DNA from: Fimicolochytrium jonesii
Taxonomy: Eukaryota
DNA: 64,000 nt
Assembly (NCBI RefSeq): GCF_025526975.1
Contig: NW_026515672.1
Location: 186,001 to 250,000, forward strand
Direction of reading: 5' to 3'
Made by a program: the position numbers and the translations under genes. The notes below the pieces were generated by a model that saw only the letters and a program-made list of their open reading frames with translations, did not search any database and was not told the DNA's origin. Positions 1 to 64,000 of the stretch are shown in pieces. Positions within the stretch are counted from its first letter, which is position 1, and each line of letters opens with the position of its first letter.

Positions 1-848
1 GAGGTGTTCGATGGGATCCCAGGTTCGCTATAGGGTATCGTCTGGCCCGCATTGACCTGACCGAGAAGACACGGCGACGAGACGTCGGGCACGTCGAATT
101 GGATGTAAGCAATCTTGGATAGCTGTTCCAAGCGCTGCAAGAACCCCACAGCGTACACCTCCTTCAGGCCCAATGCGCTTTTGTCAATTGGAATTCCAAC
201 ATCCGTAGGGACCGCTGTGGCCGAATTGCACAAATGCAGTTTATATGCCTTCTGCTTTCCATCGGGAAACGTAACGGTGGCTAATTTGTAGTTTTTGTTG
301 TATGTGACCTGGAAGTTCTTTGCATGCTCTGTCAAGAGAAATCGGTTTAAGTTCCCGGCTTTGTGTCCATACATCTTCACGCTTCTGCCTTCGTTGGGTG
401 CGCTCCCTCCTAATACTTCGGCACTGCGTCGTCATGGCCGTGGACGACTACCATATAACTTGGACGCCTCTCTACATGCGACTCGCGCGCGCCTTCCTAC
501 AATTGACGACATCAAAGCCTTCCTACAATTGACGACCCTTCCCAACCAACCCTGCCACATCTCACAAGCAGCTGCCACATATTGCTCCTACAACTCCCAA
601 TTCTTCTTGCGTCTCCGCCAGAGCCCAACAGACCCCAGCGTCTCCACCTGTTCCACTAGCAGTGAACGACACTCACTAATTTCAACTCGGTTTGCCGCAT
701 CGGCGAAGTAATCCTTATTCGCATCAAACTTGTTCGGTGATTCAATTGGCCCACCGGTGCAAATCGGCGTTGTGGTTTGCGCATTCACGAAAGCCGAAAC
801 GCTCGCAAGTGCCAACAGGCACAGAGACTTGAGATGGAGTCGTAACAT
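1..848 (-). CDS. Secreted CBA1-like / periplasmic substrate-binding-fold protein (cobalamin/iron-chelate binding family); partial, runs off the window start
   Basis: ATG at 848 with signal peptide MLRLHLKSLCLLALASVSAFVNA. Exon 1 848..677, GTGAGT...TTGACAG intron 676..329, exon 2 328..1 open to the edge. Spliced protein: FDANKDYFADAANRVEIKHAKNFQVTYNKNYKLATV...YKLHLC...IPIDKSAL...VGFLQRLEQL...VSSPCL, matching the DYF..V...A.NF.V.Y.NNYK / Y.L..C / IP / SSPCL motif series I recognise from CBA1-type proteins. Confidence 0.7.
491..536. repeat. Direct repeat of the 20-mer GCCTTCCTACAATTGACGAC (2 copies, period 26) inside the intron of the CBA1-like gene
   Basis: Identical copies at 491..510 and 517..536. 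Confidence 0.9.
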
Positions 849-1645
849 GGTGACCGTATTGGTTGGCGACGGTTGTCTCCTGCGAGGATTGTCCATGCAC
901 AGGTGCGGAAACGGAGGAACGGAAAAGACAAGCGCAAGAAGCGCAAAGCTCGCAAAGCGGGAGACGACTCGTCACGTGATTCAACAAGTCGCCTCCTCCC
1001 TCTCTTCCACCCTTCCACCACAGCTTCCACCACGCTCAGCACAACCATCTAACCGTCTGATGCCCACCGGCGCCACGGATGCTATCAGTTGGTGCTCAGA
1101 GCCTTAGGAAGAATACTCACTACAGGGTCGACTGACGCGCAAGTCCGTCTCTGAAGATGCTCTCGGGATTACCTACATGTGCTTTCCAGCTGGAGGCAGT
1201 CACCATGGCGATGCGCTAAGATTCGGTCGGAGCGTTGGCGATGAGGCATCGACGAGGGCGCTGAAGGGTTCAGGCCTGAACAAGAAGTGTGGAAGGAAAC
1301 CGTCCCCCACCCAGAGATATTGAAGGTGGGGACAACGTCTTCCTCCACGAAAACCTCGTACAGTTCTTTCGCTCTCCACACCAGTTGCAAAAGAACAAGT
1401 CATCCTTCAAAAAGGTCCACCTCGTCTCAAAACTCGCTCTCGACTTCTTGAGCGTGGTACGATATAAAGAAACAACAGCTGAATAGACCATGGCAATAGC
1501 TCACCTTTCTGACCTCACAAAGGCACGAAAAAAAGAGCACTTCGTGAATCCAAATGTGAGTGAAAGTCGGTTGCGTTATCTTTGCGTTTTCACACCTTGC
1601 TTGTATTGCTTCTAGCGTGAAACTGATCCGTCTAGGACTCGTCCA

Positions 1646-3121
1646 ATGGAGCAGATGCAAAAGCTCCGAATTAGTCTAGTATCGCTGGATTGGCTGAGAC
1701 CGAAGGATCCGCGGATTGCGCTTGGACATGCGTCGATCAAAGCTAAACTGACACAAAGCCAATTCGCCGAGCGCTTGGACGTCAAGGATCACTCCTTCAA
1801 CGTCAATCCAAGCCAATCGCTTCCGGCAGACTTGCTGAGCACGGCTGAAGAAGCAGCTGATGAGATCTTGGCGAGCAAGCCGGATCTTGTGGCATTTGGT
1901 GGATATGTTTGGAACGAATCTTATGTACAAAATATTCACAAGATCTTGGCGACTTCAAACCCGCGAAACACCTTCAACATACTAATGGGTCCGCAGACTT
2001 CCTATGCTCCAAAAGGGACGCTCGAATCATTCTATCCCTTCAGCGACATCTTCATCCGAGGCTATGCAGAAGACGCATTTCGCGACGTTGTCGAAAACAT
2101 GTTGCTACTTCGCAATGAACGGATTCGCGGAGTCCATCATGCGGGAGGGCACGACGATGGTTCTATGGCCAATGTCGATCTCAACGCCGCCCCATCGCCA
2201 TTTACTGAAGTAATCGACTTGAACAAGCACGAATTTATACGCTGGGAGACACAAAGAGGTTGTCCATTCCGTTGCACATTTTGTCAACATCGCGACTCTT
2301 ACCAGAAGCGATCCTTATTCAATTTACCGAAGCGAATTGCTGGAGAGATCCACGAAATCTGCTCAGAGCGAAGCGCTGTGCGCGATATCGCTGTTCTCGA
2401 TCCTACCTTCAACTCGGGACCGCACTACATTTCGGTCATCGAAGAGTTGACCCAACGTGGATACGCAGGGCGCCTTGCACTGCAGTGTCGCTTCGAGATG
2501 ATGCGGCCCGAGTTCGTTGAAGCCGTTCGGAGGCTTATCACGGTCAACAATGCGAAAGTCATACTTGAGTTTGGGATACAGACGATCATAATGGCCGAAA
2601 TGAAGGAGATTCAGCGCATCAACAACCTGGAGAAGGTCAAGTTCTGGGCGGAGCAACTGCATGCCGCGGAGATTCCCTTCGAGATCTCCCTCATCTACGG
2701 TCGCCCACATCAGACCGTCGATACATTCAAGAGGAGCATCGATTTCTGCCACGAACTGAAGCCAACTACCATGTATGCATGGCCCCTGATGCTACTTCGT
2801 GGCACAGAGTTAGAACGAAAGAAAGGGGTTCTCCAGTTGGAGGAAGGCGTGTTAGAGGAGGAAGGGGAGCAAAGATTCGTGGAGAAGCAGCGGATTCTAG
2901 GTGGAATCCCGCATGTTATGAGCTCGCCATCATTCAGCAAGAAGGAATGGTTTGAGATGCGCGATATAGCCGCAAGTCTTAACCTTCATGAGGATTATAT
3001 GTTGTACATAATCTGCTATTCTTTGCATGTTATGAATGTACGCCAATACTTGCCTGTAGTCACCTTACGGTCATACATGCATAATCCCATCGCAATCCGC
3101 GTACGCAAACTCTCAGAATAA
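1646..3121 (+). CDS. B12-binding-domain radical SAM protein (class B-like), intronless, bacterial-type
   Basis: 491-aa ORF. N-terminal cobalamin-binding Rossmann motifs (ALGHASI, KPDLVAFGGYVWN, ILMGPQTSY, DIFIRGYAE), CxxxCxxC in ETQRGCPFRCTFC, then LDPTFN, LEFGIQT, LIYGRPHQT and PLMLLRGTEL. The last ~45 aa look non-conserved. Confidence 0.88.
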   Translation: MEQMQKLRISLVSLDWLRPKDPRIALGHASIKAKLTQSQFAERLDVKDHSFNVNPSQSLPADLLSTAEEAADEILASKPDLVAFGGYVWNESYVQNIHKILATSNPRNTFNILMGPQTSYAPKGTLESFYPFSDIFIRGYAEDAFRDVVENMLLLRNERIRGVHHAGGHDDGSMANVDLNAAPSPFTEVIDLNKHEFIRWETQRGCPFRCTFCQHRDSYQKRSLFNLPKRIAGEIHEICSERSAVRDIAVLDPTFNSGPHYISVIEELTQRGYAGRLALQCRFEMMRPEFVEAVRRLITVNNAKVILEFGIQTIIMAEMKEIQRINNLEKVKFWAEQLHAAEIPFEISLIYGRPHQTVDTFKRSIDFCHELKPTTMYAWPLMLLRGTELERKKGVLQLEEGVLEEEGEQRFVEKQRILGGIPHVMSSPSFSKKEWFEMRDIAASLNLHEDYMLYIICYSLHVMNVRQYLPVVTLRSYMHNPIAIRVRKLSE

Positions 3122-3250
3122 ATATATGTCACGTCGCATTGTCGGGTTTTGTGCTTTGGCGTTGGGGGTAGGCGGAAGTAACCCGGGGTGAGACGTCTTG
3201 GTCCTTGGCCTGCAGTCCTTGGCTATTTCCATTATTTCTCCAATTCGGGC

Positions 3251-4478
3251 CTAATGAAGAGTGAGCTGACAATATCCGACCTTGACCCATCTCAAACCCC
3301 GAGCTTGGTTCGCACTAACCATTAATGCAGTCATGAAGAGTATAGCCGAAGTAGTGGGGATTTCGTTGCCTCGGTTGAGACTCGCCGGAATGGAAAACCG
3401 CCCTACCTCGACTGCCAGAAGAACCCCGCCGAAGACATAAACCTCGTAGGCGACACAGTCGGTTCCATAGATGGCGGCGGCAATCTTCAAAGATGCCCTG
3501 GATCCCGGATCCTCTGCCTTGAGATCATCGATCAACCATTCTATCGTATGGTCGATGGCCCGCGCTTTATGCTTCCTAGCCTCGCTAGGCTTGGCGTTGC
3601 CCGACTTGGCTTCAAATGCGGCAATCTTTTTCCCCCAACCCTTTGTACGCAATAGTCAGGTCTTAACTTCTTATACTTTTCTTGAGTATCGTCGCTAATA
3701 ACAAAGGATTTACCATTCTCGCTCCCTGCGGCGACAATCAACTTCGGTCGCCGGACTTACTAGAGCCATTCGATATCTTCAGCTACTAGAAAACCAAAAT
3801 GATGCTGGATTATTTCTAGCGGACCATGTCGGCTCGTTAACGTCGGGGCCGGGGATCGGCACAATTTTGCGCTCAAAAGGGGGTTTAAAATCACATTAAT
3901 AACCCGGCTGGCAAAGCGATCCCAAAATTGACAAAAGAAAGCACCCAGAATCCCCTGTGACTTGAATAGCTTCCTCTGGACCGACTTGCAGCGACAAACG
4001 CCACCTGCAGTCAGGTCGGACAGGTCCCGGTGGGCAAACGCGCCAACGAGCCTGCCACGAGAGTTTGGGGGACTACGCCACAAAAGCTAGCCAGCCGCCC
4101 TCCCGCTGTTCATAAAGCAGCCATACAAGTCGGACCGACTTGCAGTGACGAACGCCGCCTGCAGTCAGGTCGGACAGGTCCCGGTGTGCAAACGCGCCAA
4201 CGAGCCTGCCACGAGAGTTTGGGGGACTAAAGCCACGAAAGCTAGCCAGCCGCCCTCCCGGCACGTATGCCTTCGACTTGTTTCAGGGGATCGGCTCATA
4301 CAATAACACTTACCACGTTCACTGCTGCACCGAGCTCGCCATCAATCTTTCCCTTTAGTCGGCGAGCCGCCCGATCGGTCAAGTCCCATTCTGTCTCGGC
4401 AATGTCTTTCTGCGCTGCTGTGAGATCCACCAACCATTCCGACCATGACTTCCCGTCCTCGATGGAAGGGACGCTCAT
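3251..4478 (-). pseudogene. Degenerate PD-(D/E)xK restriction-endonuclease-fold gene (Crinkler/CR-REase-like)
   Basis: Fragments in different frames join into NEPTWSA / EIIQHHFGFLVAEDIEWL / KKLRPDYCVQRVG / GKKIAAFEAKS...YEVYVFGGVLLAVEVGRFSIPAS. At least two frameshifts (one in the G5A5 run at 3627..3636) and an internal duplication. A possible first exon (MSVPSIEDG..., from 4478) ends in a GTAAGT donor. Confidence 0.55.
3978..4260. repeat. Tandem direct duplication, ~128-bp unit, period 154
   Basis: 3978..4105 and 4132..4260 are near-identical (GGACCGACTTGCAG...GCCAGCCGCCCTCCCG) with only a few substitutions and one indel. Confidence 0.95.
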
Positions 4479-4955
4479 AACGCCTGCCGTGTAGGTATCT
4501 TGTAAATCGGAGCGCGGTTTGTTTCTTCCAGCTGCTGGATGGGTGAGATGGGGGAAGATGGGGGGATGCACGACGGGGGCAAGTTAACACTGCACAGGAC
4601 ATCTTCGGTACTTTTCAAAAGTGCTGGCTCTCGATGTCATGAACCACGACGCTGTCCGAAAACGCGTAAGCAACTCCGACTCTACGCGTTGCGAAACAGG
4701 CACCGGTGAACATGATAAAGACTGGGATATCTAATTAACTGTGACTCGCGTATCAGTGAACTTTTACTTGAAGAAATAAGATGGAGATTAGCGCATTTGC
4801 GTACTGCCAATGGGAATGCCATATACGCCGCACCGCAATACTAAGGGAAGACATGGAACCAGACAGAAGCGGAGCAAGATACGGATCGCTATGAACTTCC
4901 TGAGCAAAATGCAGCAACACGACAACGATGCCACGATGGTTGCTCAACTATAGTG

Positions 4956-7900
4956 CTAACCGCGCTCAGCACTGATGGCGGCACCACTCGCTCGGACGGG
5001 CTTCGCGTCGGCCGCAAGAGCTCCAGTTCCAGCTGCTCCGTTGATCTTGCCGGCGATGCCTACACCCTTCGAATCGGGAGTCTTGTCCGTAACAGCGGGG
5101 TCTTTGGTTGCTTTCTGAGGACTGACCGAGCGCGTATTGTCGCCGCTGTCACCGAAGAGCATCTTCCCATACAGCTTCTTTTCCTCGTCTTTGATTTTCT
5201 GCTGTTCTTTCAGAAGCGCGACTTTCGCGGCTTTGATTGCCGGGTCGTCTCGGTCAAGCTGTGAGAGATCCATTAGTAAGCACGTAGAGTTGTCTCCTGA
5301 GGAGGCCGCTTTGGTCAACATACGTCTTCAGCGGTATCCAACGCGCTCTGAGCCCCTTCCCAGTCCTTGAGCATAGTTTTGGCCCTGCCCAACCTATACC
5401 ACATCTTCGTATTTTGGGGGGCAACAGCCAACCCACCCTCACAAGCTCTTACGGCATCAGAAGCATCCAGAGTACGAATGTAAGCCTCGGCCAGATTAGA
5501 GTAGAGGGCGGTGCGGAGCTTCTGAATCTCCATGTCATCGTGCACGGAGGCGCCCCACGTGGTTCGGAGACGGTCTAGACCGGCCTTGTAGCTTTCTTGG
5601 GATAGATGGTAGGCGCCGGTTTTGAAGTGGGCGTTTCCGCGAGTTTTGTGAGTGGTGGCCTCTTCAATGCGTTGCGGGACAGGGTCTTGAGGCTGATGAG
5701 ATGCAAATTGTCAGCTATTGCTCCATTATAGCCTCCGTAGGCCGTTGAAGCCCTACCAGCTCGGCGTGTACGATTTCCAGATGGAAACACAAAGTGGCGT
5801 TGCCAGGCACCATCGGTTGATAACCTTCCTCGCCATAAGCTGTGAAATCAGGCGAATCCGAAGAAATGGTAAGCATCACTCGTATTCACCGGGACGGGCT
5901 ATGATGCGCCCGTGGAAAGTAACATACCGTATTCAGGTCCACAGATGATCTCGCTCTTCTCATTCACGTGCATAGTAGACACAGCCTTTTCCCACGCTTC
6001 GAGAACTTGGCCTGTGAGATAGGAAAATGTCAGGTTCTGTCCGGCGGGACAGAGCGCATGGTTATTCCGATTAAGTCTCACCGTCTCCATGGACATATTC
6101 AAAGGGACGACGGCCAGCGCTACTGTCAAATTCCTTCGGAGGATCGGTGCCATGCACCCAACCGGTGTAATGAACTACGTCCGATATGTAAGTAATGCCA
6201 CATGTGGAGCGACGTAAATCTCTGAACCCTCACCTTGAAGGTAAGACTGGGGAGTAATCAATGGGCCCGAACCACGTCGAAGGACCTTCTTCTTCAGGTT
6301 TCCATTGGGGTCCAGAAGAGTGTAGCCGTCCGCATCAACGCCGTAGTCGTGCACGACGGGTGCCGCCGGATGCGCTGCTGCAGGGGAAAATAGGGTTTAG
6401 TACCTCATTCGCAGATTCCGCATCTCGAACTCGTGCATACCTGGTGCAGGATCCTCGGCATTATTCCACTTTTCCTGGTCACCTTTCTCGGCCGCTTTGA
6501 CATTGCTCTCCCCTCCCGCTTCATCCCAATCCACCGGAGGAAGATCCTTCAATTCGACGCGCTCGCGTTCATTCTTTTGCTGCTCACGCGAAGGACCGAA
6601 CTGGGGTGGTTCGAGAGGGACATGCGATCCATCCTCAGCGATACGCCAGAACCGGCCATCTTTGCCCATCACAAAGCCGTTGGGAACACGACAGTCACCA
6701 ACGACACGGGAATCAGCCAAGTATTCCGGGATATCTTCCCATGTGTGCTCTCCATTGTAATCTCCCTCCCCTGGCTTTGCTTGAAGGAACGCACAGCCTT
6801 TCAAATCATGCCCTGGATGGCCGCATCTACAACAAACGCCGTCATTGCGACGCTGCCTCCAGAGCCAGTCCGGGATGTTACACTTCTGGCTGAGGCGGAG
6901 CTTTGGCTTCGTCGGGATCTCCATGGTGGAGAACTTGTAAGCGGCGCAGTCATTCCAGTCCTTCTTGCCATCGAGATCATCGTAGAGCGCGCAATCCTGG
7001 AGTCGGTGGCTAGGGTGGCCGCAACGGAGACAAACTTGGCACGCCTTGCGATGCTCCCACAACTCATACGAGATTCCCCAGCGACGACCACCACGGTCGC
7101 GATAGAAACTGTGCTCCTTTTTCTGGGCGGGCGCGGCTTGGTCTGGTATCGGAGTCTCCGTCGGTGCAGTGGGCTGCTTCATGATAGCCTCCCCGGCGGA
7201 CATGTCGTCCTGACCGTCAGCTTGGTCCCCATTCTGGTCGGCATCAGAAGCGTTCCTTTTGTTCTTGTTCTTGTTCTTCTTTTTCTTTTTGCGACCTGAT
7301 GTCTCAGCTAGCTCTTCCTCCGTGGGTGGGATAATCACGACAGGTTCCTGAGATGGGTACGGACGACACGATAGGATGAGATGTATATCCCTCCGACAAA
7401 GCCTACAAGAATTCTGGCAAGCCGATGCGGGTGATGAAGCTAGAGGCTACACGTACCCGCTCTTCGGTGTACTTGAGGCAAGAATGCTGGCCTTTCTCAA
7501 TCTCACAAACCTCCATAGGAAAGTAGGTAGGGCCCTGAAAGTTCAGGCATTATGGGCCGAATTAATCATGTCTCAAAACCAAAAAAAAGAGACGCAGTTC
7601 ACGTACCCCGGATTTCCTGACAACGACGCAAGCCAAGCCTGGATGATCCAATTTCTTTCCCCAGCGACTCTCGAAGTAATCGGCCACGCTTTTGCCGTCC
7701 ATGTCTCCGTCGAGGAAGATCTGATCAGCGCGCCTGGCTGTGAACTGCGAGATTCGGTAGCGACGTCTAAACTCTGGATTATGAGTAGTCAGAAAATTGT
7801 AGTTACGCAGCTCCAGCGTCAGGAAGTTGCAGTCTTCTTCACTGAGAGGCCGAGAGAAGGGATCGGCACGGGTCGGATATTGCTGTTTGAGAAGACGACC

Positions 7901-8461
7901 GACTACTTCGAGCATTGGCCCGCCGTCGAGGAACGAGTCTGTGCGAAGATCCGGATGATGATGAAATCCCTCCTCATCCTGAACCGTTTGGCCGGCTTGC
8001 TCAAGGGCTTCTGGGGTGGGCAGTCCACTTTCTTGGTGGTCCAACGTGGTGCGAGCGAGCCTGGAGAGCGCATCGACAGCCTTCTCAGTCAAACTTCGAA
8101 GATTCAGAATATCCCGTGTTGCGTCAGTTACCTGAGTTCCTCTTGCAAGGTTGAAGCCACAGCTTGCTTTTCGGAAATCTTTTGTCGAAGGTTGGCCATC
8201 CATGCTGAGCTGGAAGCATCCTCGTTTTTGACAGCTCTCTCCACGAGAGGTTCATCGACAACTGGGTGGCTTCCCTCGTCAGCGAACAGTTACCGGTTCA
8301 ATCAAGCAAAGAGCGGTCAATATACCTTCACGAAGGCTGACGGCGTTATCAGGAGTCTCCGTGGTGCTTGGTTTCTCAGCTTGTAGAATCTTGTTGCTAA
8401 CGGCAGCTGAAGAACCGTTGGCGTCGCGCTGGGTTTCTTGGGCAGGAGCCACGTTTCCCAT
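4956..8461 (-). CDS. Fusion protein: Argonaute-type PAZ + 2x CCHC zinc knuckle + FKBP-type PPIase + TPR (Hsp90 clamp), ~937 aa
   Basis: Manual model, all introns GT-AG and in frame: exons 8461-8326, 8261-8132, 8093-7607, 7534-7457, 7347-6441, 6377-6234, 6174-6082, 6011-5928, 5839-5757, 5692-5324, 5258-4956 (2814 nt). PAZ: TTHNPEFRRRYRISQFT...SVADYFESRWGKKLDHPGLACV...PTYFPMEVCEIEKGQ. Knuckles: CLRCGHPSHRLQDC and CCRCGHPGHDLKGC. FKBP: VHYTGW...FDSS...PFEY...GQVLEAWEKAVSTM...EYAYGEEG...VPGNATLCFHLEI. TPR: HKTRGNAHF...YSNLA...NTKMWYRLG...EKKLYGKM. The start codon and the 38-nt second intron are the least certain parts. Confidence 0.82.
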
Positions 8462-9457
8462 CCTGTCCGTAGCTTTCTTGAGGGGGAGGAGGGTGGTCTT
8501 TCGTGGAAAATGCAATAATAACCAAGGCAAGCTTGCAGTGAGTTCCAAACGTCCCTCGGTTCCGCAAGCGGAAGACGCTGTCGAAAATCGCCCTGGGAAG
8601 GTTCCAACAATCACCTGGCCTCCAGCAATGAGGTTGAGTGGAACTGACTTGGTAGGTGTGAGGTCGAGAGCCCTAGGAAATTAGGTAGGAGAGCCTTAGG
8701 AGAGGAGGTATAAGTAGAGTGGAGGTCTCTCGCTTTCCCACGGTCTCTGGGAACAGCTCTCCTCCCTCCTCCTGTCTGTTGCGGGGGTTCGTCCCCGCTG
8801 TCAATCTGGTTGACTCATCGCCACTGTCGAAAATTGGACTGTTTCTAATGGTTCCATCCGGTTCCTGGTACCAGCCGCTTTCCTTTCCCGACTGCCGTAA
8901 TGCCACACGTTGGGTCGTTGGGAGGCATGAAATCTGCACGAACCGACAGGTTGAACTCGGTGTGACAGCGGTGGCGTCTGTGGCTCTGTGGCTTTCTTGG
9001 CCAGTTACTCCAGGGCATTTGCCTGCTAACGTCGTACCCACTTCCAAGCAATAGGATCGGCATGAGTATGACGGAAGGTTGTGTCCCCAGCAGTGGCGCG
9101 CATGCCAGGGTCTTGCAACTCTTGTTTTACATGGCAAACTTTTGCAAGTCTGGTTGGCTTCACGGAAAGCCATGTCCGATCGTTTTGCCAGAGGCGGCCG
9201 TGCCTCATGGGGAGGGATCCGTTTGAATAAGCGCGTTCTATATCAAAACCATCAAGAGAAGTTGGCGGGCCCTCCTTGCAGGGGCAAAGACCTTGCTTCC
9301 TTCTTCGTTCTCCGTTCTCCTCTCTCCGCTAAAGAGAGCGACCGGCTGAGGAAAGAAATATATATACAACGCCTGCCTATTCGGTGCCCACGGAGAACCG
9401 GCCCGACGCTTGTACCTCCACCACCGACCGATACCTTAGATACATTACCAGCCCGGC

Positions 9458-48755: not shown

Positions 48756-52248
<3,493 letters not shown>

Positions 52249-62647: not shown

Positions 62648-64000
62648 ATGAGCGACGAAAAGAGAGCGGAGAGGCTTTTGAAGCGGGCGAAGCCATTCCT
62701 CGACGAAAAGCTGAAAGCTAAACAGAGACTGACCGCTCTGTCCAGCTTTGTCGGTAACTTGAACGTCGTTTACTTTGTGCAGAAGTCTGGGGATAGACTC
62801 GACGCTAATATCAACATCCTTGTTTGTGCCTTCCTTCAGAGAACTCCAATGTGCAGGAGCAACAGAAGTTTTTTCACGAGCATGATTACCAGATATACAC
62901 CGTCATGTTCGATTGCTTTACGCATCAGGTGGACAAAATCAAAAGTAGGATCAGGCGATATCACTGCGGTGTCCGCTTTTGATAATCTCTGATGTCCATG
63001 CGCGTTCCAGCACGAGAAAAACCAGACAAGCCGGTTTCCATAAACAGTAAAGAGGTGGCTGATTTACTGCGATCTTTGCAGATCTTGAAGAAGATCATAG
63101 TCTATCTCCCCGAGAAGATGAGAGCTGGTTGGCAAAGGCGAAGCATAGGTACCGGCTGTGTCCTCTCTTGGGTATTGTGCAACCATTGTGCTTACCCCTC
63201 TCCATCCTCTTCAGTGGGAATCCTCCAGGCCTTACTCGTAACAGGCAACCATGTCAAGCTACGCATCGAAGGACTCCGACTTTTGCTTCTATACCTCGCC
63301 CAGCAACCGCCAGAAGTACAGGATACGATCCCTCTGTACGCCAACGCTATTTCATTATCCGTATTTGATGCTTTCGTCATCCCCCCGCCAATAGCAACTG
63401 CGCATACCTACTGCGAAAATCAGGGAATAGATAGTCTGTTGCCGACGGAGGGTGTTGCCGTCTGGAAGGGGGAGGGCAAAGGACAACTGAATCAGGATGT
63501 CATAGAATGGGAGAGACGAATACATACGCTCAACGGGCCCGCATCCGTGGGCGGTTCAGGAGGCAGCAGCAGTATGTGCAATATTTGTCATCTTTCGCGA
63601 GAGCAATCAATTCAGACGAATCTTCCACCCTTAGCCATGGATAGAACGGTGCTGCTTCCTAGCTCGACGCCCTTTACGATTTACGACGCGATGGACATGT
63701 TCGAGGAGATCTTATCACATCTGGTTATAGTGGCTGGTGAAACACCTGCAACTCAATCGACGGCGACGGCGAGCCTGCAAGTTCCAAGTGTAAGAGGTCA
63801 TCGGGGCTCGGTCGTGGAAAAGGTACACCCGGAAGCTAAGGAGACGGAAGTCGGGACTGATGCCCCGAACGTGAGCACGCCCTCAGTGAGCAGAAACGGT
63901 TCTCTCGCCGCCACGGACACAACGCCAGCGAAATCCATACTCGACATTTCTGCTCAGCCGGCGGATGGCCTCTCCATTATGTGGGGCCATTTCCGAAATC
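62648..64000 (+). CDS. Ral GTPase-activating protein alpha subunit-like, N-terminal part (runs off the window)
   Basis: Spliced KPFLDEKLKAKQRLTAL...FFHEHDYQIYTVMFDCF...ILKKIIVYLPEKMRAGWQRRSI.GILQALLVTGNHVKLRIEGLRLLLLYL matches the RALGAPA N-terminal pattern (LPERI..RWQ.HSI...LLHTGN..KIR.EG.RLFLLWL). Confidence 0.8.

What the first reader, a model, noticed from the sequence alone, without database searches (positions are those of the whole stretch)
1..3121. Head-to-head cobalamin module: CBA1-like B12-capture protein plus B12-binding radical SAM enzyme in a fungus
Seen: the two ATGs (848 minus, 1646 plus) diverge across 797 bp. One gene is secreted and intron-containing with CBA1/substrate-binding-protein motifs visible only after splicing. 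The other is an intronless B12-binding radical SAM. Established: CBA1 is required for B12 uptake in Phaeodactylum and Chlamydomonas; early-diverging fungi retain B12-dependent enzymes; the recognised eukaryotic B12 enzymes are MetH, methylmalonyl-CoA mutase and class II RNR. Inference: this may be a co-regulated acquire-and-use B12 gene pair supporting a further type of B12 chemistry in a eukaryote. The adjacency could also be chance.
Basis: partly seen in the sequence, partly recalled or inferred. Interest (0 to 1): 0.82.

Follow-up and report, generated by a model that had tools for sequence, protein, structure and literature searches.

The report
Fungal B12-type antiviral-candidate radical enzyme
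A chytrid fungus carries a vitamin-B12-type radical enzyme from a family listed as an untested bacterial anti-phage candidate, so early fungi likely have an unrecognised kind of B12 chemistry, possibly antiviral; but this copy has motif changes that may cripple it, and its place beside a divergent B12-uptake-like gene is probably chance.

Summary
Both genes are real: a spliced minus-strand gene (ATG 848) and an intronless radical-SAM gene (1646-3121), 797 bp apart, in a chytrid-type genome. The 'capture-and-use module' reading is weak. The minus gene is a CBA1 homologue (11 of 16 published landmark residues) but has lost three of the four residues predicted to line the B12 pocket; its orthologues occur in seven chytrid genera, none of which appears among the enzyme's 120 best relatives. 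The better story is the enzyme: it matches, full length, the anti-phage candidate PDC-M51A (E 1e-107), folds like B12-dependent TokK/CysS, and lies in a well-supported clade with Nowakowskiella, Allomyces and mycorrhizal-fungal copies, nested among patchily spread bacterial copies whose basal members pair with a viperin-type nucleotide kinase. Likely role: B12-dependent radical modification of a nucleotide for antiviral defence (untested; defence-neighbour enrichment was not significant). This copy has a Gly missing from GGPQ, an L353R change unique among 120, and a probable read-through tail, so it may be decaying. Earlier scan notes described PDC-M51 on bacterial DNA, one mentioning fungal relatives.

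The parts
677..848 (-). CBA1-like gene, exon 1 (signal-peptide-like N-terminus)
   Evidence: spliced product matches P0121 residues 1-166; hydropathy
329..676 (-). 348-nt GT-AG intron of the CBA1-like gene
1..328 (-). CBA1-like gene, exon 2 (runs off the window; full protein P0121, 502 aa, class III substrate-binding fold, C-terminal TM helix, WFE pocket motif replaced by TRY)
849..1645 (.). 797-bp divergent intergenic region; no Rfam match, no notable repeat
1646..3121 (+). Intronless B12-type radical SAM gene (P0001), PDC-M51A family
1658..2140 (+). N-terminal Rossmann-type cobalamin-binding domain (approx. residues 5-165), invariant W89
1985..1990 (+). GGPQ motif reads MGPQ: one Gly apparently missing (GGPQ in 117 of 120 family proteins)
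2261..2284 (+). CxxxCxxC [4Fe-4S]/SAM motif (C206, C210, C213 invariant in 120 of 120)
2702..2704 (+). Arg at position 353 of the GxIxGxP-type motif, Leu in 119 of 120 family proteins
2981..3121 (+). 46-residue low-GC, low-confidence tail beyond the family end; probable read-through
   Evidence: tail GC 0.41 vs 0.51; 17 nearest relatives have 0-14 residues here

Best explanation
The plus-strand gene is a fungal member of the PDC-M51A family of B12-type radical SAM enzymes, which likely uses cobalamin and SAM to modify a nucleotide into an antiviral analogue, while the head-to-head CBA1-like gene is a divergent chytrid homologue whose adjacency is probably incidental. Shown here: family membership by profile score and tree, the two-domain fold in a predicted model, the Fe-S motif, patchy bacterial spread with varied insertion sites, a thymidylate-kinase-like partner in the basal bacterial members, and a supported fungal clade nested among bacterial copies. 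Inferred: cobalamin binds base-off in the N-terminal Rossmann domain; the [4Fe-4S] cluster cleaves SAM to a 5'-deoxyadenosyl radical that abstracts H from a nucleotide; methylcobalamin then methylates it (TokK/CysS-like) or a rearrangement follows (OxsB-like); a host kinase replaces the bacterial partner; the product hinders viral polymerases, as viperin products do. The family would have entered early fungi from bacteria once and been kept patchily in B12-using lineages. This particular copy may be impaired.
For: PADLOC PDC-M51A match over model positions 4-416/420, E 1.3e-107, 358 bits, whereas generic B12-rSAMs in the same genomes score at most 103 bits and 0 of 14 control genomes ring at E 1e-60. 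Model pLDDT 83.8; best folds TokK (E 1.6e-24, TM 0.73) and CysS (Z 34.9, rmsd 3.0, 414 aligned). Bacterial copies in 6 of 400, 16 of 301 and 4 of 401 sampled genomes, centres included, with no shared operon. PDC-M51B kinase (Pfam Thymidylate_kin; also hits PADLOC VakA) directly downstream in 3 of 25 genomes tested plus 1 of 5 metagenome loci; these copies branch at the base of the family. Neighbours include BREX, dCTPase, Thoeris TIR, AbiE, PD-Lambda-1, SIR2-like, NACHT, CHAT-TPR and DUF4258-like small genes; HicA/RelE genes are reported next to prokaryotic viperins (PMC10865869, passages). Fungal clade support 100/100 and 100/99; Rhizophagus and Allomyces copies lie on Mb-scale contigs in several assemblies. 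Named eukaryotic carriers are Glomeromycota, Allomyces, a chytrid, dictyostelids, a diatom, a nematode and a sponge; no Dikarya or land plant is named in the top 120, and Glomeromycotina and Blastocladiomycota are the fungi with the full B12 enzyme set (PMC8085122 section 6). OxsB is a precedent for a B12-rSAM making an antiviral nucleoside (PMC11659888, passage).
Against: PDC-M51 is an untested candidate from guilt-by-embedding (bioRxiv 2024.01.29.577857 section 10). 22 of 25 tested genomes lack an adjacent kinase, and the eukaryote-rich clade nests among kinase-free copies; the window has no such kinase. Specific defence neighbours within 3 kb: 4 of 27 family loci vs 1 of 23 control loci, Fisher p = 0.36; 3 of 26 vs 1 of 23 after merging two related loci, p = 0.61; taxa were not matched. 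Some gammaproteobacterial copies sit among metabolic genes (L264, L265, L165). B12 use is not shown: Pfam B12-binding is under its cut-off, and by my count on the alignment the family has Gly where TokK has the DMB-binding Ser72 and His where TokK has Trp215. No substrate evidence comes from the eukaryotic side. The chance-adjacency part rests on absence from a ranked hit list, not on a synteny test.
Confidence: 0.45

Rival explanations
1. One reading: a co-regulated acquire-and-use module, in which the CBA1-like protein captures B12 at the membrane and a shared bidirectional promoter drives the enzyme that uses it.
For: 797-bp divergent layout; P0121 is a CBA1 homologue with 11 of 16 landmarks, signal-peptide-like start and C-terminal TM helix as in CrCBA1; CBA1-like sequences co-occur with METH in five of six B12-using fungi, Spizellomyces included (PMC10828217 section 10); a given gene landing next to a CBA1-like gene is a rare event in one genome (own reasoning, no call).
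Against: Pocket residues W394/F395/E396 are T/R/Y and D408 is N; the whole chytrid subfamily lacks WFE, while Glomeromycota-type homologues keep 15 of 16; best structural matches are iron-siderophore and heme binders, all within about 3 Z units; orthologues in seven chytrid genera without a top-ranked enzyme orthologue; land plants keep CBA1-like genes without B12 use; the enzyme copy may be impaired.
Confidence: 0.18
2. The enzyme family is a B12-dependent methylase or rearrangement enzyme of accessory metabolism (small-molecule, lipid or RNA modification, or detoxification), swept into defence islands only occasionally as mobile cargo.
For: Closest structures are natural-product methylases; most bacterial copies are solo with no kinase; defence enrichment not significant; transposases and metabolic genes near some copies.
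Against: No conserved biosynthetic operon in 27 loci; basal members are coupled to a nucleotide kinase, one inside a BREX system; repeated conflict-type neighbours (NACHT, SIR2-like, CHAT, AbiE).
Confidence: 0.22
3. Whatever the family does, this copy is a decaying or mis-sequenced gene with no present function (compatible with the best explanation for the family).
For: Missing Gly in GGPQ (117 of 120 keep it), L353R (119 of 120 Leu), 46-residue tail where 17 nearest relatives have 0-14; 2 radical changes at 97%-conserved columns, where 103 of 120 proteins have none and only 3 of 120 have two or more.
Against: 445 codons without stop or frameshift, coding-type GC pattern (GC1 0.56, GC2 0.38, GC3 0.58), 112 of 117 conserved columns kept, end branch 0.51-0.57 like other clade members; Allomyces deviates more.
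Confidence: 0.3
4. The gene is bacterial contamination or an endosymbiont fragment in the assembly.
For: Intronless; a sister clade mixes bacterial MAG copies with eukaryote-labelled ones such as Gigaspora, dictyostelids and Attheya.
Against: On a 1.22-Mb contig 797 bp from an intron-bearing fungal gene; GC like the host's; falls in the clade whose named members are all fungi.
Confidence: 0.03

Closest known systems
PADLOC phage-defence candidate PDC-M51 (PDLC04689/04690; PDC set of Payne et al., bioRxiv 10.1101/2024.01.29.577857)
   Same: Full-length match to the A subunit, E 1.3e-107; same clade in trees.
   Different: Eukaryotic host, no PDC-M51B kinase in the window, three unusual changes in this copy; the candidate itself is untested. 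The paper's main text does not name M51; its Fig. 6E legend lists SAM and dNK among example domains.
Cobalamin-dependent radical SAM enzymes TokK, CysS (methylases) and OxsB (oxetanocin ring contraction)
   Same: N-terminal Rossmann domain plus radical SAM barrel; Z 22-35; CxxxCxxC; YVWN-type strand with Trp matching TokK W76 by my count.
   Different: About 445-residue core without their long C-terminal domain; 16-21% identity; Gly for TokK Ser72, His for Trp215; all are bacterial.
Viperin / prokaryotic viperins
   Same: Works-like analogy: radical SAM enzyme shared by bacteria and eukaryotes, with nucleotide-kinase (VakA-like) and small RNase-like neighbours in bacteria.
   Different: Not a viperin: extra B12-type domain, Z only about 14 over the barrel alone, no viperin model hit in PADLOC.
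CBA1 (Chlamydomonas, Phaeodactylum; PMC10828217)
   Same: 26% identity over 204 columns, E 5e-17, to P0288, a protein with all 16 CrCBA1 landmark residues at the published positions; 11 of 16 kept; same topology.
   Different: W394, F395, E396, D408 and P251 replaced; member of a chytrid subfamily lacking WFE; ligand unknown.

Membership tests
Radical SAM superfamily | CxxxCxxC motif and partial TIM barrel | tested here: met
   Pfam PF04055 above cut-off; cysteines invariant; fold
Cobalamin-dependent radical SAM (class B type) | N-terminal Rossmann cobalamin-binding domain | tested here: met
   414-424 residues align with CysS/TokK over both domains; Pfam PF02310 E 8e-6 but 26.1 < 32.1 bits
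Cobalamin-dependent radical SAM (class B type) | Intact cobalamin-contact motifs (Ser/Thr to DMB, GGP loop, hydrophobic axial residue) | tested here: inconclusive
   W89 invariant; family Gly at TokK Ser72; GGPQ lacks one Gly in this copy. Role of TokK W76 as axial residue is recalled, paper not held
Cobalamin-dependent radical SAM (class B type) | Binds cobalamin and needs it for turnover | not testable with these tools
   needs biochemistry
PDC-M51 candidate system | Protein A matches PDLC04689 full length | tested here: met
   score gap to generic B12-rSAMs
PDC-M51 candidate system | Adjacent PDC-M51B kinase gene | tested here: not met
   tblastn of two M51B proteins against the window, best E 0.5; rest of genome unavailable
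PDC-M51 candidate system | Antiviral activity | not testable with these tools
   untested even in bacteria
Viperin | Single-domain radical SAM matching viperin models | tested here: not met
   no viperin model hit at E 0.01 in PADLOC; extra N-terminal domain
CBA1 | Homology, BtuF-like class III binding-protein fold, signal peptide and C-terminal anchor | tested here: met
CBA1 | Helix cluster K78, P118, L136, E206, F214, F215, N216, E218 | tested here: met
   8 of 8 kept
CBA1 | Predicted B12-pocket cluster W255, W394, F395, E396 | tested here: not met
   1 of 4 kept (W-T-R-Y); the cluster is itself a model-based prediction in PMC10828217
CBA1 | Score under the published CBA1 HMM (E < 1e-20) | not tested
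   supplement not readable
CBA1 | Required for B12 uptake | not testable with these tools
   needs knockout or complementation

The most novel reading that the evidence does not exclude
Early-diverging fungi, and scattered amoebae, algae and animals, keep a bacteria-derived, B12-dependent radical SAM enzyme that makes an antiviral nucleotide: a fourth kind of B12 enzyme in eukaryotes and a second viperin-like arm of innate immunity that depends on a vitamin taken from bacteria; in this chytrid it may share a promoter with a CBA1-type uptake gene.
Probability: 0.25. Interest if true: 0.9.

Novelty: new variant of a known kind. Interest (0 to 1): 0.57.

Why it matters
The papers read list methionine synthase, methylmalonyl-CoA mutase and class II ribonucleotide reductase as the eukaryotic B12 pathways (PMC8085122). 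A B12-type radical SAM family kept in mycorrhizal fungi, Allomyces and chytrids would add a new class, and its link to an anti-phage candidate makes a direct test possible: do fungal copies make the same nucleotide as the bacterial enzyme-kinase pair? It would also offer a reason for B12 uptake in fungi that have B12-independent alternatives. For this locus itself the stakes are lower: the pair is probably not a module and the copy may be impaired, so Rhizophagus or Nowakowskiella copies are the better test objects.

Tried and rejected
No whole genome is held, so synteny, paralogue counts, METH presence and the region left of the window could not be examined. RNA runs: none was listed; no evidence either way. 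Rfam 1-5000 at E 1: 0 matches, so no cobalamin riboswitch. Pfam/NCBIfam give nothing for P0121 or its exons; PDB by sequence 0 hits. BtuF is not among the listed fold matches of P0121, which does not exclude it; the wide fold search was not run. No NCBIfam B12-rSAM family reaches its cut-off. Defence-neighbour test not significant; for it I gave 115 ORFs of 27 family loci and 135 of 156 ORFs from 23 of 27 control loci (L006, L040, L042, L043 left out for size), and did not count generic kinase, ABC, helicase, AAA, subtilase or cysteine-desulfurase hits on either side; Pfam was run on 44 chosen family neighbours only, not on controls. Two window ORFs (49585-50166, 62986-63999) were left out of the Pfam scan. 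Trees used 65 and 50 chosen rows, not all 120 hits; the second dropped two long branches and 16 near-duplicates. Literature: ten searches; 'PDC-M51' gave 0 papers, and no listed title or abstract describes a eukaryotic B12-rSAM family; subscription journals are not covered, and supplements of PMC10828217 and of the PDC preprint, which may list these proteins, were not seen. No complex prediction was sent: cobalamin is not an offered ligand and no protein-protein binding is claimed.
Full report
Observation. The two genes are as described. The minus gene starts at 848, has a 348-nt GT-AG intron (676..329) and runs off the window; the spliced 166 residues equal the start of database protein P0121, 502 aa, from the same 1.22-Mb contig. 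The plus ORF 1646-3121 is intronless, 491 aa. The ATGs are 797 bp apart; the spacer has no Rfam match and no notable repeat. The host is a chytrid: the nearest named relatives of P0121 are from Geranomyces, Thoreauomyces, Spizellomyces, Powellomyces, Phlyctochytrium arcticum, Borealophlyctis and Rhizophlyctis (29-38% identity). No whole genome is held. None of 37 window ORFs scanned is another B12 gene.

The minus gene. P0121 has a hydrophobic N-terminus, a C-terminal transmembrane helix and a predicted class III substrate-binding fold (pLDDT 84.6; best matches iron-siderophore and heme binders, Z 14-16, essentially tied). Among the search hits, P0288 carries all 16 landmark residues of Chlamydomonas CBA1 at the positions printed in PMC10828217 (section 10 read), so I used it as the CBA1 reference. 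P0121 aligns to it at 26% over 204 columns (E 5e-17) and keeps 11 of 16 landmarks: all 8 of the helix cluster, but only W255 of the four residues that the paper places round B12 (W394, F395, E396 read T, R, Y; D408 reads N). The other chytrid orthologues also lack WFE (8-12 of 16), whereas three other homologues shown, one from a mycorrhizal fungus, keep 15 of 16. So it is a CBA1 homologue with a changed pocket; its ligand is open. The paper does list Spizellomyces among fungi with both METH and a CBA1-like sequence, and notes that land plants keep CBA1-like genes without using B12.

The plus gene. It has CxxxCxxC, Pfam Radical_SAM above and B12-binding just below cut-off, and no NCBIfam family at cut-off. 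The model (pLDDT 83.8) matches TokK and CysS over both domains (TM 0.73; Z up to 34.9) but lacks their long C-terminal domain. 981 relatives were found among 7997 candidates; the best 120 are 40-51% identical. Named ones include Nowakowskiella, Acaulospora, Diversispora, Rhizophagus, Funneliformis, Glomus, Gigaspora, Allomyces, Polysphondylium, Tieghemostelium, Attheya, Panagrolaimus, a Rickettsiaceae MAG and, in one cluster, the sponge Oscarella. No Dikarya, land plant or Spizellomycetales name is among them. In both trees the query falls in a clade (100/100, 100/99) whose named members are all fungi, with unnamed environmental proteins; its sister clade mixes proteobacterial MAG copies with other eukaryote-labelled copies, some of which may be symbiont contamination; both nest among myxobacterial and other prokaryotic copies. 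Bacterial origin is inferred from this nesting with an outgroup of generic B12-rSAMs; no one-clade test was run.

The family. The protein matches PADLOC PDC-M51A over the full model (E 1.3e-107), far above generic B12-rSAMs (at most 103 bits). PDC systems are untested candidates found embedded in BREX, DISARM or RM loci (preprint section 10 read; M51 not named in the main text). The family is rare and patchy in bacteria (6 of 400, 16 of 301, 4 of 401 genomes, centres included; 0 of 14 controls) and has no shared operon. A thymidylate-kinase-like PDC-M51B gene, which also hits the VakA model, follows it directly in 3 of 25 genomes and 1 of 5 metagenome loci; the three such copies placed in the tree branch basally. 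Other neighbours are BREX, dCTPase, a Thoeris TIR, AbiE, PD-Lambda-1, SIR2-like, NACHT, CHAT-TPR and small DUF4258-like genes. Against this, a controlled count gave 4 of 27 versus 1 of 23 loci, p = 0.36, and most copies, including all that are close to the eukaryotic ones, have no kinase.

Mechanism. Shown: architecture, motif, family, contexts. Inferred: base-off cobalamin in the Rossmann domain, SAM cleavage at the cluster, H-abstraction from a nucleotide, then methylation (as TokK, CysS) or rearrangement (as OxsB, which makes the antiviral oxetanocin ring; PMC11659888 passages), and a product that blocks viral polymerases by analogy with viperin (PMC10865869 and PMC12926258 passages). The many conserved Arg/Lys residues would suit a phosphorylated substrate; they were not mapped on the model. 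By my count on the alignment, invariant W89 matches TokK W76 (its axial role is recalled), while TokK Ser72 and Trp215 correspond to family Gly85 and His215, so the cofactor site differs and B12 use needs proof. The fungal carriers belong to the groups with the fullest B12 enzyme sets (PMC8085122 section 6), which fits B12 dependence.

This copy. It keeps 112 of 117 conserved columns but reads MGPQ for GGPQ (117 of 120 have GGPQ), has Arg at 353 (119 of 120 Leu) and a 46-residue low-GC tail where its 17 nearest relatives have 0-14 residues; an out-of-frame TAA overlaps the usual end. These may be decay or assembly errors; no reads were available.

The pair. The CBA1-like gene is old and vertical in these chytrids, the enzyme is not found at orthologue rank in the same genera, no CBA1-like gene lies in 30 family loci from prokaryotes and metagenomes, the pocket is altered and the enzyme may be impaired. 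A real link cannot be excluded without synteny or expression data; I put it at about 0.18.

Novelty. Ten searches of the open-access library (listings and abstracts seen) found no paper on PDC-M51 or on a eukaryotic B12-rSAM family; PMC8085122 (passages and section 6) names three eukaryotic B12 pathways; PMC11439496 and PMC13459092 (passages) add none. Supplements were not seen. This scan had already noted PDC-M51 on bacterial DNA, with one note of fungal and algal relatives; I had reached the family assignment before that look-up. Verdict: observation confirmed, module unlikely, family-level lead good. Interest 0.57.

Noticed in passing
window 6400-8614 (-): Spliced-looking gene with a PAZ domain (Pfam E 1.9e-8) followed by an ORF with CCHC-knuckle-like repeats and no PIWI hit in the ORFs scanned: an Argonaute-like fragment or unusual small-RNA-binding protein 3 kb from the enzyme.
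   Followed up: partly
window 3978-4260: Two tandem copies, 154-155 bp apart, 96% identical over 98 nt, in non-coding DNA downstream of the enzyme.
   Followed up: no
window 4959-6153 (-): Multi-exon FKBP-type plus TPR gene.
   Followed up: no
window 491-536: Exact 20-nt direct repeat, 26 bp spacing, inside the CBA1-like intron.
   Followed up: no
L001:2-2275 and L003:79-5943: NACHT-like NTPase genes directly upstream of family members in two unrelated bacteria; in G002 the order appears to be NACHT, enzyme, kinase across two contigs.
   Followed up: partly
L161:7627-7986, L280:7232-7582, L281:2912-3229: Small DUF4258-like genes immediately upstream of the enzyme; in L277 and L280 a related 890-aa unknown protein is transcribed divergently.
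   Followed up: partly
L270 and L272: PD-Lambda-1, SIR2-like and a lipoprotein-like gene upstream of the enzyme in two myxobacteria.
   Followed up: no
P0311 (Oscarella), P0039 (Panagrolaimus): Animal-labelled members of the family; contamination not checked.
   Followed up: no
P0147-P0153, P0156: A chytrid-wide CBA1-like subfamily that has replaced the WFE pocket motif: candidate for a changed ligand.
   Followed up: partly
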